A DNA stretch of 64,000 bases. Origin: Nitrosopumilus sp. Its GTDB lineage: Archaea > Thermoproteota > Nitrososphaeria > Nitrososphaerales > Nitrosopumilaceae. The stretch is from contig OZ243974.1 of the NCBI GenBank assembly GCA_965214775.1, positions 2,688,001 through 2,752,000 on the forward strand, written 5' to 3'. The position numbers and the translations under genes were made by a program. The notes beneath the pieces were generated by a model. The model saw only the letters and a program-made list of their open reading frames with translations. It was not told the origin of the DNA and did not search any database. Shown here piece after piece: positions 13,975-56,344 of the stretch (position 1 is the first letter of the stretch; each line of letters begins with the position of its first letter).

Positions 13975-14094
13975 CTCCGAAAACCTCGCCGGCCGGCTGC
14001 GCACGGAATTCTCACTGCCTGATTGATGGGGGTAGGTGACCACATACGATCTCCGAAAACCTCGCCGGCCGGCTGCGCACGGAATTCTCACTGC
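13975..14094. repeat. 44-bp perfect direct duplication flanking a 32-bp insert
   Basis: Copies 13975-14018 and 14051-14094; insert ctgattgatgggggtaggtgaccacatacgat. Confidence 0.95.
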
Positions 14095-14420
14095 ACCGGA
14101 TCCTTCTTGCAGTCTCGGGTACGCCCATGTCGTCTTCTAGCACAAACATCAGCGCCATGATCTTCTTGTAGACTTTGACATCCTTTTCCTTGCGCATGGC
14201 CTCTGACAGGATATCTGTTTCTTTTGCCATACATACTGCGCCAGTTACGTGATCATTATACTTTTCGAATGACCTTGTTTTGGCTCAAAGACTTATGCTC
14301 GTTGCTATAGGACGTTTTACCAGTGGAGGGAGCGCTTTTTGCAGGCAGGACGCGTCTCACTGTCGGGCAGGGGCCACAAGTCAACAGAGGAGCGCCTCAA
14401 TAGAGTTGTTGCTAAAAAAA

Positions 14421-15434
14421 TCAGATTCTTGCACATATCTGGGACGTAAACTCAGACGTGGATTTCTTGCCGCCAATATCCCTGGTTTTTACGCCGGATT
14501 TGACCAAATCAAATATTGCAGACTCTAATTTTTCCCCAACTTTGACGCATCTTGCGTCATTGTGCTTTGCCCCAAGCCAGTCAAGCATCATTTTAATCGA
14601 CAGTAAAAGTGACGAGGGATTTGCAATGTTTTGTCCTGCAATGTCAAACGCGGCACCGTGAACCGGCTCAAAGAGCGCAAAATCATCGCCAATGTTGGCA
14701 GCCGGCGCCATTCCCAGCCCGCCAACCACCTGTGATGACTCGTCGGACAATATGTCGCCAAACAGGTTGGTGGTCACAACGACGTCAAACTCCTGTGGTT
14801 GCCTGATCAAGTTCATGGCGCACGCATCGACATACATTTGCTCAAATAAAATGTCAGGATAGTCGCCTGAAACCTTGGCACATGCCTTTGCAAACATTCC
14901 GTCTGTAACCCTCATTACGTTTGACTTGTGGACGCAGGTCACCTTTTTCTTGCCGTTTCTCGTTTTGGCCGCTTCAAATGCATGTCTTGCAATCCTTTTG
15001 GATGCCTGCTCTGAGATAATTCTCAAGGCAACTGAGGAATCGCCCAGACTGAACTCTTTTCCGGTGTAGAGATCCTCAGTGTTCTCACGGACAATCACCA
15101 TGTCAATATCCTCACGCAGTGCAGGCATGTGTGGATAGGACTTTGCAGGACGGATGTTTGCATACAAGTCAAGCATTCTTCTTAATACGACGATTACGTC
15201 GGCAGCCGACTCCCCGACAGGCGCCTTTATGCAGGCATCAGACTGTTTTATTGCCTCAACTGTCCCATCGGGCAGGGCTTTTCCGGTTTCAGATAACGCC
15301 TTGTCGCCTGCCGGCAGTTTTGTGACATCAAATTTCAAATCCAGCTTGTCATGGATGGCCTCCAGTACGGACACTGCAGAATCGGACAGCTCAGGGCCGA
15401 TCCCATCTCCGGTAATCAACGAAATTCGATACAT
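14421..15434 (-). CDS. leuB: 3-isopropylmalate dehydrogenase
   Basis: GDGIGPE, VRENTEDLY, NLFGDILSD, FEPVHGAAFDIAG; operon context. Confidence 0.9.
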   Translation of the reverse strand: MYRISLITGDGIGPELSDSAVSVLEAIHDKLDLKFDVTKLPAGDKALSETGKALPDGTVEAIKQSDACIKAPVGESAADVIVVLRRMLDLYANIRPAKSYPHMPALREDIDMVIVRENTEDLYTGKEFSLGDSSVALRIISEQASKRIARHAFEAAKTRNGKKKVTCVHKSNVMRVTDGMFAKACAKVSGDYPDILFEQMYVDACAMNLIRQPQEFDVVVTTNLFGDILSDESSQVVGGLGMAPAANIGDDFALFEPVHGAAFDIAGQNIANPSSLLLSIKMMLDWLGAKHNDARCVKVGEKLESAIFDLVKSGVKTRDIGGKKSTSEFTSQICARI

Positions 15435-15470
15435 TTACAACATCACTGAAACCAAAGGGGATTTTAGGAT

Positions 15471-16988
15471 TTAGCCTGCCCGTTTTTCCTGCAGCATCTT
15501 TTTGAGCATGATTCTGTTAATTGCATCAATGACTGCCTTGACTGACGTGGTAACAATGTCTTCGCCTACCGACTTTGCAGATACCTTGTTTCCCAATGGA
15601 TCCTCGACTTTTACGGTCACCTCGCACAAAGCGCTAGAACCGCCAGAAATTGAGGCCAGTCCGTAGTCCTTGATTCTGATTTCTGAAATCTTGCCAGTGA
15701 TCTTTTGTATTGCATTTAATGCCGCGTCAACCGGACCGACCCCGTAATCAGTCCCGATATGATCCTGCCCATCAACATTGAGTTTTACAAACGCATAGGG
15801 CATCGTTCCTATCCCAGTGGATACGGAAAATCCGGTCAGCTGCACGATGCGTTTAAGATCCTTCTCTCCCAAGACTTTGCTTGCCATCGACAGGAGCTCA
15901 ACGTCGGTTATCTGCTTGCCCTGGTCGCCTAACACCTTGACTTTTTCCAGGATTTGTTTTGCCTGCTCCTCAGTTGGCCTTACCCCGTACTCTTCAAGCA
16001 TTGCGTTCATTCCATGAACTCCTGCATGCTTTCCCACTTTGAGCCACCTCTTTCGCCCAACCAATTCGGGACTGATTGGCTCGTATGTCAAGGGATTGTT
16101 CAGCACGCCATGGGTGTGAATGCCCGACTCGTGGCCAAACGCGTTGGCACCAACAATGGCCTTGTTTGGCTGGACGATAATCCCCGCAGTCTTTGAGATG
16201 TATCTTGATACGTCGTAAATTAACTCGGATTTGATGTTGGTCTCGTATTTTTTCCCGTACGGCAGGCACTTGAGTGCCATGGACAGTTCTTCCAGGGACG
16301 CATTGCCTGCTCTTTCCCCTATTCCGTTAATCGTAACATGTGCACAAGCTGCCCCGGCATGGATGCCGGCCAATGCATTGGCCACTGCCAATCCAAAGTC
16401 ATTGTGACAGTGAACGCTTACAGGCAAGTTTGTAGCCTCAATGGCATCTTTGGTAATTCCTGCCATGTGTTCAGGTGTGGAATACCCCACAGTATCAGGA
16501 ATGTTTACCCTGTCGGCTCCTGCCTTTGCGACCCTGCCAAAAACTTTTTTCAGGAATTCCCTGTCAGTCCTTGATGCGTCTTCGGCTGAAAACTCCACCT
16601 GCAAACCATGAGACTTGCCGTACTCTACTGCCTCGACTGCCTTTTCTAATGCCTGCTCGCGAGTCATCTGGAGTTTGTACTCCAAGTGAATGTCAGATGT
16701 TGCAATAAAGGTGTGAATGTATTCCAATCCTGCATCAATGGCCGCATCGATGTCCTTTTTGGTGGTCCTGGTCAATCCGCAGACCTCCGAGGCCAGTCCG
16801 GCCGATGTGATCATCCTTACTGCCTGCAACTCGCCTTCTGAAATCACCGGAAATCCGGCCTCAATTGCGTCAACTCCCAGTCCGTCTAATTTTTTTGCAA
16901 TAGCCAGTTTTTGATCAGGGGACAATGAGACGCCAAGCGTCTGTTCCCCGTCCCTTAGCGTCGTATCAAAAATTCTAACTCTTGGCAT
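15471..16988 (-). CDS. leuA: 2-isopropylmalate synthase
   Basis: DTTLRDGEQ, HCHNDFG, GIGERAGNA, HESGIH, C-terminal regulatory domain. Confidence 0.9.
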   Translation of the reverse strand: MPRVRIFDTTLRDGEQTLGVSLSPDQKLAIAKKLDGLGVDAIEAGFPVISEGELQAVRMITSAGLASEVCGLTRTTKKDIDAAIDAGLEYIHTFIATSDIHLEYKLQMTREQALEKAVEAVEYGKSHGLQVEFSAEDASRTDREFLKKVFGRVAKAGADRVNIPDTVGYSTPEHMAGITKDAIEATNLPVSVHCHNDFGLAVANALAGIHAGAACAHVTINGIGERAGNASLEELSMALKCLPYGKKYETNIKSELIYDVSRYISKTAGIIVQPNKAIVGANAFGHESGIHTHGVLNNPLTYEPISPELVGRKRWLKVGKHAGVHGMNAMLEEYGVRPTEEQAKQILEKVKVLGDQGKQITDVELLSMASKVLGEKDLKRIVQLTGFSVSTGIGTMPYAFVKLNVDGQDHIGTDYGVGPVDAALNAIQKITGKISEIRIKDYGLASISGGSSALCEVTVKVEDPLGNKVSAKSVGEDIVTTSVKAVIDAINRIMLKKMLQEKRAG

Positions 16989-54825: not shown

Positions 54826-55467
54826 TCACCACGCCGGCTCGTCAACCATTTTCAAGCCGTCATGGGTCTCTTCAAAACCCATGATTTTCAGAGTCTCCTT
54901 TGCCGATGGGGAATTTCTCTTTTGGATCAGGCGTGCCAGAATTGTCCTTGATTCAGAGTTTATGTGCTGGCCAATTTTGTATTTGCCAGTCATCTGTTCA
55001 GGAACCACCTTGATTACAGCAGTATGATTTAGGACGTCCATCTCAGAACGAAGAGGTTCGTATTGGCCTTCTGGCTGATATTTTTTCATCATTGCGTTTA
55101 GCGCAAGCGATTTTTCACTAGGATCCTGAACGATTACAGAGTGGCCTTTGATCACGACGCTAATGTAAAGGGTATCGGCCATTGAGGCATCAGTTGGGCT
55201 AGAAAAGTAGGATGGGAGAAACTCCAACTCACGGTCTGCTTCAAAGCCTGATTTTGAGTTTGTCTTGATATTTTCCAGTTTTTCGCCTTTGAGATGAGAG
55301 TGCATGTAAATTGCGTCATTGAAGAATACAAAGTTCATAGGAATGACTTGAGGATATCCATTTGAATCAATTGTAGCTATTCGGCCAACATGCTCTTGAT
55401 TAAGAAACTCGGCCATCTTTTGTCTTGATTGAATCTGTAAGCGACCTACAAGTTGCAACAATCCCAA
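54826..55467 (-). CDS. Pyridoxamine 5'-phosphate oxidase-like flavin-binding protein
   Basis: GYPQVIPMNF, IYMHS..GEK, YISVVIKG. Confidence 0.85.
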   Translation of the reverse strand: MGLLQLVGRLQIQSRQKMAEFLNQEHVGRIATIDSNGYPQVIPMNFVFFNDAIYMHSHLKGEKLENIKTNSKSGFEADRELEFLPSYFSSPTDASMADTLYISVVIKGHSVIVQDPSEKSLALNAMMKKYQPEGQYEPLRSEMDVLNHTAVIKVVPEQMTGKYKIGQHINSESRTILARLIQKRNSPSAKETLKIMGFEETHDGLKMVDEPAW

Positions 55468-55673
55468 CCTAATCGATTTATTTTATAAATCTAGAGATGA
55501 TGGAGGCGTTGTCCAGAATCATGATTTTAGGGCGTGATTTCCGGGGAGATTTGTGCAAAATCATGGCGCAATGACTGCAAACACAGAGACGAATCCGCAC
55601 TCCGGCCCGCATTGTATGGCAACGAGCACGATATGTCAAAATTACGGTCCGTTTTTTTTGATGTGCGCACTAC

Positions 55674-55810
55674 AGAGGTGATCCGAAACTAGAGACCGTA
55701 CGAATCTTTCAAGTAATTTCACAGATAACTTGCATTTTGTTGACATTTTGAACTGTTTTATGCAAATTCGTTCACAAATAATCAGAGTCTGCTAATTTCG
55801 AATCAACTCT
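55674..55810. mobile_element. 137-bp ISL2-derived MITE
   Basis: agaggtgatccgaaactag / ctaatttcgaatcaactct|cag. Confidence 0.9.
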
Positions 55811-56344
55811 CAGGGACGCCAAGGCGTGTCTCAGTGGACCGGACAAGCTGTCCCGGGAGGATCTGCTGGAGCTTGAGGAGAGGACGGGGATAAGGGCCGC
55901 CGACGGATTGATGGGCCGGCACTCGTCGGAGCTGCGCCGGCTGTTTGAGACTAGGATGCGCAACGTCCTGTTCGGATACAGGGATACGCAGGACGAATCG
56001 TTGAAAACTCTTGTCAGGAGGATGTACAATGCCCTGCCGGGCCTGTTTGCATTCCTAGAATACGAGGACGTCGAGCCCACCAACAATTCTGCAGAGCGGG
56101 CGCTGCGCCCCGTCGTATTGCAGAACAAGATAAGCGGCCAGATCAAGATGACAAGCTCGGGCAGATCCTTGAGGCATAGTCCGTGTCGTATTGCAGGACA
56201 AGATAAGCGGCCAGATCAAGGGCGGCCTGGTCTGGATGGACAGGTACGGATGGCTCAACACATGCACCTCGACGTGGAAGCTGCAGGGCAAGTCCATCAT
56301 GGTTGAGGTAGCCAGAATAATTTATGGGGTAGGTGACCTCATAC
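55811..56344 (+). pseudogene. IS66-family transposase C-terminal remnant and element end
   Basis: VEPTNNSAERALRPVV; end ggggtaggtgacctcatac. Confidence 0.8.
56112..56220. repeat. 36-bp direct duplication (1 mismatch) flanking a 37-bp insert
   Basis: Copies 56112-56147 and 56185-56220. Confidence 0.95.

What the first reader, a model, noticed from the sequence alone, without database searches (positions are those of the whole stretch)
13975..56220. Three dispersed repeat-spacer-repeat scars with CRISPR-adaptation geometry
Seen: three unrelated sites each have a long duplication of the local sequence around a short foreign insert: 44+32 bp (13975-14094), 36+38 bp (37140-37249) and 36+37 bp (56112-56220). 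The total gain is near constant at 73-76 bp. The pre-insertion state is supported by the uninterrupted MITE at 24982-25067 and by restored IS630 and IS66 frames. Established: Cas1-Cas2 integrates a roughly 30-40 bp spacer and duplicates a repeat-length target, and off-target integration outside arrays is known; DDE transposases make much shorter TSDs. Inference: frequent ectopic spacer integration by a low-specificity Cas1-type integrase or an undescribed fragment-capture activity. All three hits lie in mobile DNA, which could reflect survivor bias or a way of inactivating IS. No cas gene is in this window.
Basis: partly seen in the sequence, partly recalled or inferred. Interest (0 to 1): 0.85.

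Follow-up and report, generated by a model that had tools for sequence, protein, structure and literature searches.

The report
Stray CRISPR spacer insertions genome-wide
The three scars are real and belong to about fifty places in this archaeon's genome where its CRISPR memory-writing enzyme seems to have pasted a spacer-sized DNA piece outside the CRISPR array, copying a repeat-sized stretch of local DNA each time, which gives a rare natural record of how often this immune system mis-writes into its own chromosome.

Summary
All three repeat-insert-repeat sites are exactly as described. They are not isolated. A scan of the 2.83-Mb single-contig genome finds 74 solitary direct repeats of at least 26 nt at periods 40-130, and 46 of them have periods 69-76. 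Mean gain is 72.7 +/- 1.4 bp, the commonest duplication is 36 bp and inserts are mostly 36-38 bp.

The genome has one Cas1, in an intact type I-B cas locus beside a 68-repeat array with 37-nt repeats and roughly 35-nt spacers. A second, cas-less array has 36-nt repeats and roughly 37-nt spacers.

- 20 of 46 inserts copy the host's own DNA, against 0 of 78 native spacers.
- Targets weakly resemble the leader end of the array-1 repeat.
- Sites avoid long open frames, and survivors inside such frames are mostly 72 bp, in frame.
- A congener with Cas1 carries 15 such scars. 400 kb of a Cas1-less congener carries one doubtful scar.

Verdict: natural off-target spacer integration by Cas1-Cas2, filtered by selection. 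The mechanism is known; the scale is unusual. IS-directed targeting is not supported. Read-level confirmation was not obtained.

The parts
13975..14018 (.). Site 1, first copy of the duplicated target (44 nt apparent; 41 nt if the 3-nt microhomology TGC is assigned to the insert)
14019..14050 (.). Site 1 insert, 32 nt. It derives from a multi-copy repeat of the same genome; the best match is 31/32 at genome 26188-26219, and 13 hits reach E<=1e-4.
14051..14094 (.). Site 1, second copy of the duplicated target (100% identical). With one unit removed, the locus aligns uninterrupted to 20 paralogous copies.
37140..37175 (.). Site 2, first copy of the duplicated target (36 nt), inside a MITE-like repeat
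37176..37213 (.). Site 2 insert, 38 nt. It is an exact copy (38/38) of genome 2445016-2445053, a unique locus about 20 kb from CRISPR array 1 and the cas operon.
37214..37249 (.). Site 2, second copy of the duplicated target (100% identical)
56112..56147 (+). Site 3, first copy of the duplicated target (36 nt), in an IS66-family transposase fragment. Its first 9 nt match the leader-proximal end of the array-1 repeat at 8 of 9 positions.
56148..56184 (.). Site 3 insert, 37 nt; 36/37 identical to the unique locus genome 1599429-1599465
56185..56220 (+). Site 3, second copy of the duplicated target (1 mismatch). With one unit removed, the locus aligns uninterrupted to 8 paralogous copies.
24982..25067 (.). 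Uninterrupted MITE-like paralogue that shows the pre-insertion state of site 2

Best explanation
The three scars are products of off-target (ectopic) CRISPR spacer integration. The organism is an ammonia-oxidising archaeon (archaeal amoA present, no mcrA). It has a single Cas1 in an intact type I-B locus ordered cas8b?-cas7-cas5-cas3-(cas6?)-cas1-cas2-cas4.

Inferred mechanism, from established Cas1-Cas2 chemistry:
- The integrase is loaded with a roughly 36-38-nt prespacer.
- It makes two staggered transesterifications about 36 bp apart on opposite strands of non-CRISPR DNA.
- Gap filling then duplicates the 36 bp on both sides of the insert, so each event adds about 73 bp.

The first attack favours, weakly, sequences that resemble the leader-proximal end of the array-1 repeat. 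The second attack is set by a ruler.

About 46-49 such events are fixed in this genome. Many inserts are self DNA. These are tolerated at ectopic sites, presumably because the duplicated flanks are not CRISPR repeats and yield no crRNA, whereas self spacers in the true arrays would be purged by interference. Purifying selection has removed most hits in genes, so survivors sit in non-coding or repeated DNA or are in-frame 72-bp insertions.

Shown: geometry, numbers, sources, presence of cas genes, target bias, selection signature, recurrence in a congener. Inferred: that Cas1-Cas2 catalysed the events, and why self inserts are tolerated.
For: Geometry:
- 46 of 74 solitary direct repeats (R>=26, periods 40-130) have periods 69-76.
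- d = 72.72 +/- 1.41. In the 32 'core' sites (R 34-39), R averages 36.4 and S 36.7. In 31 of these 32 the two copies are identical.
- Native array 1 has 68 repeats of 37 nt with spacers mostly of 35 nt. Array 2 has 12 repeats of 36 nt with spacers of 36-39 nt.

Enzyme:
- There is exactly 1 Cas1 match in the genome.
- NCBIfam names cas4, cas2, cas1, cas3, cas5b and cas7 next to array 1.
- Cas1 aligns over residues 34-305 with A. fulgidus Cas1 (4n06), including the EG, GF-H-D and D--E blocks.
- Cas4 keeps its cysteines and an E-x-K motif (the motif names are recalled, not from a call).

Insert sources:
- 20 of 46 inserts match elsewhere in the genome at E<=1e-4, and 10 of these are unique and near full length, 5 of them exact.
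- 0 of 67 array-1 spacers and 0 of 11 array-2 spacers match this way. Fisher P = 9e-11.
- 6 of 13 unique sources lie within 200 kb of the cas locus (binomial P 0.006, a post hoc test).

Target bias:
- Similarity to the 5' end of the array-1 repeat gives z 3.8, with two sites at 8/9. The three other repeat ends give z 0.8-1.5.
- The combined leader+ends score gives z 4.3, against -2.1 to 0.9 for five shuffled repeats.

Pre-insertion state: 15 of 46 sites have uninterrupted paralogues.

Selection:
- The median open span at the sites is 418 nt, against 1011 nt at 3000 random positions (Mann-Whitney P 4e-7).
- 4 of 5 inserts inside open frames >=600 nt are 72 bp, against 7 of 41 elsewhere (Fisher P 0.009).
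- The affected genes are real, for example glycosyltransferases.

Recurrence:
- Congener G022 has 5 Cas1 matches and arrays of the same two repeat families. It has 15 scars at periods 72-74 in 1.86 Mb, and 5 of the 15 inserts are self-derived.
- The first 400 kb of Cas1-less G002 holds 1 scar, with R only 30 nt.
Against: - No read-level confirmation. Only assembled contigs of public runs could be laid, and the two window sites covered lie in repeats, so nothing could be concluded.
- Core ectopic inserts (mean 36.7 nt) are longer than array-1 spacers (mean 35.5; Mann-Whitney P 4e-6) and look like array-2 spacers (mean 37.45; P 0.13). Yet the only Cas1 sits beside array 1.
- The PAM signal is partial. 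TTT/TTN flanks 3 of 10 unique sources here and 4 of 5 in G022. The native PAM could not be determined.
- Target resemblance to the repeat is weak for most sites: 24 of 46 score 5/9.
- Four sites have R 43-46 with S 28-32, and the constancy of R+S has no known explanation.
- A few of the 46 are doubtful. At genome 2288313 the 'source' also matches the flank. At 333824 R is only 26 nt. At 200048 the period is 69 and lies in a gene with diverged paralogues.
- No orthologous empty site was available, because congeners are only about 70% identical in DNA.
Confidence: 0.88

Rival explanations
1. The chemistry is the same but the enzyme is different. The scars were made by a second adaptation module, cognate to the 36-nt-repeat array 2. 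That module has since been lost from the chromosome or sits on an unassembled episome.
For: Ectopic R (mode 36) and S (about 37) match array 2 (36 + 37.45) better than array 1 (37 + 35.5). Array 2 has no cas genes within about 15 kb on either side and lies beside conjugative-element-like genes. In congener G022 the same repeat family sits next to its own Cas1.
Against: Only one Cas1 is in the genome, which is 99.9% complete and a single contig. 31 of 32 core scars have identical copies, so they look recent. The only repeat end that the targets resemble significantly is the leader end of array 1 (z 3.8, against 0.8 and 1.5 for the ends of array 2).
Confidence: 0.08
2. Assembly or polishing artefact: the units do not exist in the cells.
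For: The three window sites lie in multi-copy DNA, where assemblers err. No raw reads could be inspected.
Against: 30 of 46 sites lie outside repeated DNA. The inserts are exact copies of distant unique loci. The period equals that of the native arrays. The sites avoid long open frames and are in frame when inside them. The same scars occur in an independently assembled congener and are nearly absent from 400 kb of a Cas1-less one. An artefact predicts none of these.
Confidence: 0.02
3. Cas-independent repair: a staggered break is repaired with a captured filler fragment (templated or ligated insertion), and this happens to give about 36-bp duplications.
For: In the three enlarged-R sites with a known source, there is microhomology of 3-5 nt between the source flank and the target.
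Against: Repair insertions have broad length distributions. Here both the duplication and the insert are tightly set and equal the CRISPR repeat and spacer lengths. Sources cluster near the cas locus in both genomes. Scars go with the presence of Cas1 in the two congeners sampled.
Confidence: 0.02
4. Directed function: the system deliberately targets insertion sequences and MITEs to inactivate them.
For: All three window sites are in mobile or repeated DNA.
Against: Repeated DNA makes up 24.5% of the genome. 16 of 46 sites lie in it (35%, binomial P 0.08). Depletion from long open frames explains the modest excess as survival in neutral DNA.
Confidence: 0.02

Closest known systems
Non-canonical (off-target) spacer integration generating 'neo-CRISPR' loci in E. 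coli type I-E (Nivala, Shipman & Church 2018, Nat Microbiol 3:310). The paper is not held; I saw only how citing papers describe it.
   Same: A spacer is inserted outside an array by Cas1-Cas2, with duplication of a repeat-length target, giving a repeat-spacer-repeat unit. Sites resemble native integration signals.
   Different: As described by the citing papers, the E. coli events were detected under Cas1-Cas2 overproduction with supplied oligonucleotides, and natural evidence was 'circumstantial' in two other species. Here about 46 events are fixed in a wild archaeal genome with a type I-B system. 20 of 46 inserts are self-derived, there is a visible selection filter, and the pattern recurs in a congener.
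In vitro off-target integration by Pyrococcus furiosus Cas1-Cas2 (PMC6698737; passages read) and by Thermotoga profunda Cas1-Cas2 without HU (PMC13769266; abstract and passages read)
   Same: Archaeal or thermophile integrases insert at non-CRISPR sites that share sequence and spacing features with repeats. Fidelity depends on repeat motifs or host factors.
   Different: Those are plasmid assays. Here the products are chromosomal, heritable and shaped by selection. No fidelity factor is identified.
Isolated or orphan CRISPR arrays thought to arise by off-target acquisition (Shmakov et al. 2020, CRISPR J 3:535). The paper is not held; it is known to me only from the citing statement and from recall.
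   Same: Off-target acquisition is proposed as one origin of arrays away from cas genes.
   Different: Here the units are single (one insert), their 'repeats' are arbitrary local sequence, and none has grown into an array. No R-S-R-S-R unit was found outside the two native arrays.
Casposon integration by casposases (Cas1 homologues); properties recalled, not taken from a call
   Same: A Cas1-family integrase makes staggered cuts and target-site duplications.
   Different: Casposons are kilobase-sized elements with terminal inverted repeats and short (about 14-15 bp) duplications. Here the inserts are about 37 bp, the duplications about 36 bp, and the only Cas1 is the CRISPR one.
'Ectopic' spacer acquisition inside arrays in Streptococcus thermophilus (PMC7999890; search listing and abstract start only)
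   Same: Departure from leader-proximal integration.
   Different: Those events occur at internal repeats of a true array, not in non-CRISPR DNA.

Membership tests
Off-target Cas1-Cas2 spacer integration | Direct duplication of the target, of CRISPR-repeat length, flanking the insert | tested here: met
   The mode of R is 36 (13 of 46) and 37 is next (8 of 46). Native repeats are 36 and 37 nt.
Off-target Cas1-Cas2 spacer integration | Insert of spacer length, unrelated to the adjacent sequence | tested here: met
   S is 36-38 nt in 26 of 46 sites. Native spacers are 33-37 nt (array 1) and 36-39 nt (array 2). Sources lie at distant loci.
Off-target Cas1-Cas2 spacer integration | cas1 and cas2 present and apparently intact in the genome | tested here: met
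   One Cas1 match. cas1, cas2 and cas4 pass the NCBIfam cut-offs. Alignment to the solved Cas1 4n06.
Off-target Cas1-Cas2 spacer integration | Integration sites share sequence features with the leader-repeat junction or the repeat | tested here: met
   Weak but significant: z 3.8 for the 5' end of the array-1 repeat, and z 4.3 for the combined score against shuffled controls at -2.1 to 0.9. Most individual sites match poorly.
Off-target Cas1-Cas2 spacer integration | Prespacers selected next to the system's PAM | tested here: inconclusive
   TTT lies beside 3 of 10 unique sources here, and TTN beside 4 of 5 in G022. The native PAM is unknown because no protospacer was found.
Off-target Cas1-Cas2 spacer integration | Dependence of the events on Cas1-Cas2 catalysis | not testable with these tools
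   Correlative only: scars in two Cas1-bearing genomes, and one doubtful scar in 400 kb of a Cas1-less congener.
DDE transposon insertion | A defined element with terminal inverted repeats, flanked by a short (2-15 bp) target duplication | tested here: not met
   The inserts are all different, about 37 nt long, with no shared ends. The duplications are about 36 bp.
Tandem duplication / replication slippage | The inserted material is templated from adjacent sequence | tested here: not met
   The structure is R-S-R, not R-S-R-S. Ten inserts map near full length to unique loci elsewhere.
Bona fide CRISPR mini-array | Repeats related to a CRISPR repeat family and able to be processed by Cas6 | tested here: not met
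   The flanking copies are arbitrary local sequence (genes, IS, MITE) with uninterrupted paralogues. Processing was not tested.

The most novel reading that the evidence does not exclude
Off-target spacer integration is a pervasive, lineage-wide mutational process in this genus of ammonia-oxidising archaea. That is insertional mutagenesis by the immune system, a cost of CRISPR adaptation separate from autoimmunity. The scars form a largely unfiltered record of naive adaptation, with roughly 40% self DNA and source hot spots beside the cas locus. The tight constancy of duplicated length plus insert length (about 73 bp, even when the split is 44+28) would reveal an unrecognised coupling between prespacer trimming and choice of the second attack site in type I-B integrases.
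Probability: 0.3. Interest if true: 0.82.

Novelty: new member of a known kind. Interest (0 to 1): 0.72.

Why it matters
How often Cas1-Cas2 mis-integrates in nature, and what that costs, is largely unknown. In the held literature that I could search, the direct evidence comes from over-expression in E. coli and from in vitro assays.

What this case offers:
- A wild genome with about 46 fixed events, and a congener with 15. Together they give a natural data set for measuring the ruler length, target preference, self versus non-self sampling and source hot spots of an archaeal type I-B adaptation module that cannot easily be studied in culture.
- Visible selection against hits in genes.
- The raw material from which new arrays could arise.

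There is also a practical point. The scars create frameshifts and 24-residue in-frame insertions in real genes, and array finders may miscall them as mini-CRISPRs.

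Tried and rejected
Read support. The look-up of sequencing runs listed 7 runs. 6 hold part of the stretch, and 4 hold 0.89-0.92 of the sampled words, all from one study. Read laying on window:37000-56500 with 4 runs returned only Logan contigs. 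Unique parts are identical in X3 and X4, but sites 2 and 3 lie in repeats where contigs break, so there is no verdict on the scars. A loose end at 56147 in X1/X2 continues as the empty-site form, but it may come from paralogues.

Orthologous empty sites. A 20-kb stretch carrying 4 scars was searched in 20 relatives. Only its first 1 kb or so is conserved, at about 70% identity, so no comparison was possible.

Protospacers of native spacers and of foreign-looking inserts:
- blastn of array 1 against 50,697 phage records: no match.
- Exact scans of viral contigs with one native spacer and with one ectopic insert: 0 hits each.
- One exact scan of metagenome contigs with a 35-nt stretch spanning a repeat/flank junction, to look for an empty allele: 0 hits.
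The native PAM and the origin of the 26 non-self inserts therefore remain unknown.

Other negative or discarded results:
- Spacer-to-spacer comparison of ectopic inserts with native spacers: only 10-11-nt chance matches.
- Growth of scars into arrays: no two-insert unit was found outside the two native arrays. The adjacent hits were tandem or low-complexity repeats.
- Two multi-copy families with internal direct repeats were not counted as events, because they lie inside repeated elements and do not fit the geometry. One has period 82/79 in 7 copies, the other period 75 in 6 copies.
- The search for related loci with Cas1 in genome contigs gave one locus, 52% identical, in a Thaumarchaeota MAG. 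It was not used further.
- IS-directed targeting was rejected.

Literature. Nivala et al. 2018 and Shmakov et al. 2020 are not held, so I relied on citing passages. Their texts and supplements may list natural cases that I could not see. I asked for no supplementary files.

Full report
OBSERVATION. The three sites are exactly as reported.
- Site 1: copies at 13975-14018 and 14051-14094, 44 nt, identical, with a 32-nt insert.
- Site 2: copies at 37140-37175 and 37214-37249, 36 nt, identical, with a 38-nt insert.
- Site 3: copies at 56112-56147 and 56185-56220, 36 nt, one mismatch, with a 37-nt insert.

Within the window, the repeat finder at spacing <=150 found no other pair of this kind; the remaining families are tandem repeats. 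The MITE-like copy near 24982-25067 aligns through the duplicated segment of site 2 and then continues directly into what follows the second copy. After one unit is removed, site 1 aligns uninterrupted to 20 paralogous copies in the genome and site 3 to 8. Site 3 lies in an IS66-family transposase fragment (PF03050, E 2.5e-11). Site 1 lies in a remnant with only sub-threshold HTH matches, so the 'IS630' label is weakly supported.

GENOME-WIDE PICTURE. The window is bases 2,688,001-2,752,000 of a single 2,833,656-bp contig with 47% G+C. I scanned every period from 40 to 130 for direct repeats. I kept solitary ones, meaning no other hit within 400 bp, outside array 1, and at least 26 nt long. 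Of the 74 kept, 46 have periods 69-76, distributed as 69:1, 70:2, 71:5, 72:10, 73:15, 74:11, 76:2. The other 28 are spread over all remaining periods. They include tandem or coding repeats and two multi-copy families (period 82/79 and period 75) that I did not count.

For the 46:
- Gain is 72.72 +/- 1.41 bp, apparent duplication R is 35.57 +/- 4.19, and insert S is 37.15 +/- 3.71.
- In the 32 'core' sites with R 34-39, R averages 36.4 and S 36.7, and the copies are identical in 31 of 32.

A scan tolerating mismatches adds three clear sites, at genome 1266894, 1387009 and 1703406, and about three degenerate ones. Its counts also peak at periods 72-74. A few of the 46 are doubtful: at 2288313 the 'source' also matches the flank, and 333824 and 200048 are atypical.

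NATIVE CRISPR-CAS.
- Array 1 spans genome 2420114-2425007 and has 68 repeats of 37 nt. Its spacers are 35 nt (25), 34 (16), 36 (12), 37 (5) and 33 (3), plus six odd lengths.
- Array 1 is transcribed on the minus strand from an 83-nt leader below cas4.
- NCBIfam names cas4, cas2, cas1, cas3 (HD + helicase), cas5b and cas7/Csh2 in one operon. Two ORFs, of 216 and 591 aa, had no match and are presumably cas6 and cas8b. This is a type I-B locus.
- Pfam Cas_Cas1 finds exactly one match in the genome. Cas1 aligns with the solved A. fulgidus Cas1 across its catalytic blocks, and Cas4 keeps its cysteines.
- The tolerant scan revealed a second array at 1977219-1978062. It has 12 repeats of 36 nt, the last degenerate, and spacers of 36-39 nt with mean 37.45.
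- No cas gene was recognised in the ORFs that I scanned on either side of array 2. Its neighbours include an IS66 transposase, a VirD4/TraD-like ATPase and a prepilin-peptidase-like protein.

The organism has archaeal amoA and no mcrA.

The scar geometry, about 36 + 37, therefore equals the native repeat + spacer geometry. It is closer to array 2 than to array 1. Core insert lengths differ from array-1 spacers (Mann-Whitney P 4e-6) but not from array-2 spacers (P 0.13).

WHERE THE INSERTS COME FROM.
- 20 of 46 inserts match elsewhere in the same genome at E<=1e-4.
- Ten are unique, near-full-length matches. Five of these are exact: 38/38, 28/28, 36/36, 37/37, 38/38. The other five differ by one base.
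- Window site 2 is 38/38 from genome 2445016-2445053. Site 3 is 36/37 from 1599429-1599465. Site 1 comes from a multi-copy repeat (31/32).
- By contrast, 0 of 67 array-1 spacers and 0 of 11 array-2 spacers have more than 15-19-nt chance matches. Fisher P is 9e-11.

This is what one expects if the adaptation machinery samples self DNA freely, self spacers in true arrays are eliminated by interference, and scars whose flanks are not CRISPR repeats are harmless. That last step is inference.

Six of 13 unique sources lie within 200 kb of the cas locus, two of them within 23 kb (binomial P 0.006, post hoc). I recall that a source hot spot beside the array is known from E. coli naive adaptation; that is not from a call. 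No single PAM is evident. TTT flanks 3 of 10 unique sources.

TARGET CHOICE. Junction profiles show weak preferences: G at +1, T/C at +2, and A at +6 to +8. The ends of the duplicated segments resemble the leader-proximal 9 nt of the array-1 repeat more than random genomic sites do (z 3.8). Two sites score 8/9, and one of them is window site 3. The other three native repeat ends give z 0.8-1.5. A combined leader-plus-ends score gives z 4.3 for array 1 and 4.1 for array 2, against -2.1 to 0.9 for five shuffled repeats. Specificity is therefore low but not nil, and it points to the resident I-B integrase.

SELECTION.
- 24.5% of the genome is repeated DNA (>=200 bp, >=80% identity). 16 of 46 sites lie in it (binomial P 0.08).
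- Sites avoid long open frames. The median longest open span through the restored site is 418 nt, against 1011 nt at 3000 random positions (Mann-Whitney P 4e-7). 17 of 46 sites have a span >=600 nt, against 70% of random positions.
- Of the 5 inserts that lie inside an open frame >=600 nt, 4 are 72 bp and keep the frame. Among the other 41 sites, 7 have a period divisible by 3 (Fisher P 0.009).
- Two of these genes are a PMT/LamG glycosyltransferase and a 562-aa ORF in a glycosylation island. In a third gene there, encoding GT2 and sulfotransferase domains, a 72-bp unit brings a stop.

These patterns show real insertions that have passed through selection. They argue strongly against an assembly artefact.

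RELATIVES.
- Congeners are only about 70% identical in DNA, so no orthologous empty sites could be found.
- With the I-B Cas1 protein as query, 11 of 40 other genomes of the genus gave a match, the best at 46% identity in G022.
- I fetched the whole 1.86-Mb contig of G022. It has arrays of the same two repeat families (36 nt and 37 nt), each beside a Cas1, plus 30-nt-repeat arrays. It gives 5 Cas1 matches.
- G022 carries 15 solitary R-S-R units, all at periods 72-74, out of 29 solitary repeats.
- Five of the 15 inserts are self-derived, four exactly. Two of their sources lie 6-17 kb from its cas/array region. TTN flanks 4 of the 5 sources.
- G002 gave no Cas1 match. Its first 400 kb holds 3 solitary repeats, and one is at period 72 with R only 30 nt. 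At the densities seen in the two Cas1-bearing genomes, 3-6 would be expected.

MECHANISM. The best reading is off-target integration by Cas1-Cas2, with Cas4 probably shaping some prespacers. Two transesterifications about 36 bp apart on opposite strands are followed by gap repair, which duplicates the intervening segment. Shown here are the geometry, the enzyme's presence, the insert sources, the target bias, the selection filter and the recurrence in a congener. Catalysis itself, and the reason self inserts are tolerated, are inferred.

Some features remain unexplained.
- R+S is far tighter than either term (r = -0.94). Much of this is boundary ambiguity. But four sites, including window site 1, have R 43-46 with S 28-32. 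In the three of these with a known source, 3-5 nt of source flank match the target, which leaves R 39-41 and S 33-35, still summing to 73-76.
- The inserts are array-2-like in length although the only Cas1 is array 1's.
- The seven leader-proximal spacers of array 1 are irregular, at 36, 35, 50, 35, 30, 29 and 57 nt. This may mean that the machinery is currently imprecise.

COMPARISON WITH WHAT IS KNOWN. Off-target integration is established in several settings.
- In E. coli over-producing Cas1-Cas2 (Nivala et al. 2018). I saw this only through citing passages, which say the natural evidence was circumstantial in two species.
- In vitro with P. furiosus Cas1-Cas2, where off-target sites share repeat features (PMC6698737, passages).
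- In vitro with T. profunda Cas1-Cas2 lacking HU (PMC13769266, abstract and passages).
- It is also one proposed origin of arrays away from cas genes (Shmakov et al. 2020, seen only as cited).

My six literature searches found no report of dozens of fixed scars in one natural genome. The two key papers and all supplements were not available to me, however. I therefore file this as a new, unusually rich natural member of a known kind.

VERDICT. Confidence in Cas1-Cas2 off-target integration is 0.88. Interest is 0.72.

Noticed in passing
outside the window: genome 1977219-1978062 (locus L025 15219-16062): A second CRISPR array: 12 repeats of 36 nt (the last degenerate) with spacers of 36-39 nt. 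No recognisable cas genes are nearby. It lies next to an IS66 transposase, a VirD4/TraD-like ATPase and a prepilin-peptidase-like gene, which may be an integrated conjugative element. The same repeat family sits beside a Cas1 in congener G022.
   Followed up: partly
outside the window: genome 2424400-2425007 (leader end of array 1; locus L017): The seven leader-proximal spacers of array 1 have irregular lengths (36, 35, 50, 35, 30, 29, 57 nt). The 57-nt one contains a truncated repeat. Older spacers are a uniform 33-37 nt.
   Followed up: no
loci L027-L120 (congener G022, contig C1): There are 15 solitary repeat-insert-repeat scars at periods 72-74. Five of the 15 inserts are self-derived, and two of their sources lie close to the cas/array region. 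The phenomenon is therefore not confined to the window's genome.
   Followed up: partly
window 56538-56557 and 56588-56660: tRNA-Ile (GAT) lies at 56588-56660. A 20-nt copy of its anticodon-arm region lies 74 nt upstream of the original. It may be an old attachment-site remnant and is not a spacer scar.
   Followed up: partly
whole genome: 24.5% of the 2.83-Mb genome is repeated DNA (>=200 bp, >=80% identity). Congeners are 0.7-2.4 Mb. This ammonia-oxidising archaeon appears to have undergone a large expansion of mobile elements.
   Followed up: partly
outside the window: genome 249976, 885706, 903893, 1523218, 1943907, 2105962, 2276086: A seven-copy element carries an internal direct repeat (39 nt, spaced 82 or 79). 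A six-copy family has a 25-nt repeat spaced 75 (for example at 113943). Neither fits the scar geometry and neither was explained.
   Followed up: no
window 41373-41606 and window 1-108: A 15-nt tandem repeat of about 11 or more copies, and a 54-nt tandem repeat that continues upstream of the window. Both are probably coding repeats.
   Followed up: no
outside the window: genome 1264001-1284000 (locus L004): A glycosylation gene island (PMT/LamG glycosyltransferase, GT2-sulfotransferase, sulfotransferase) carries five scars within 16 kb (1266242, 1266894, 1267835, 1275414, 1281865). Two are in-frame 72-bp insertions in long ORFs.
   Followed up: partly
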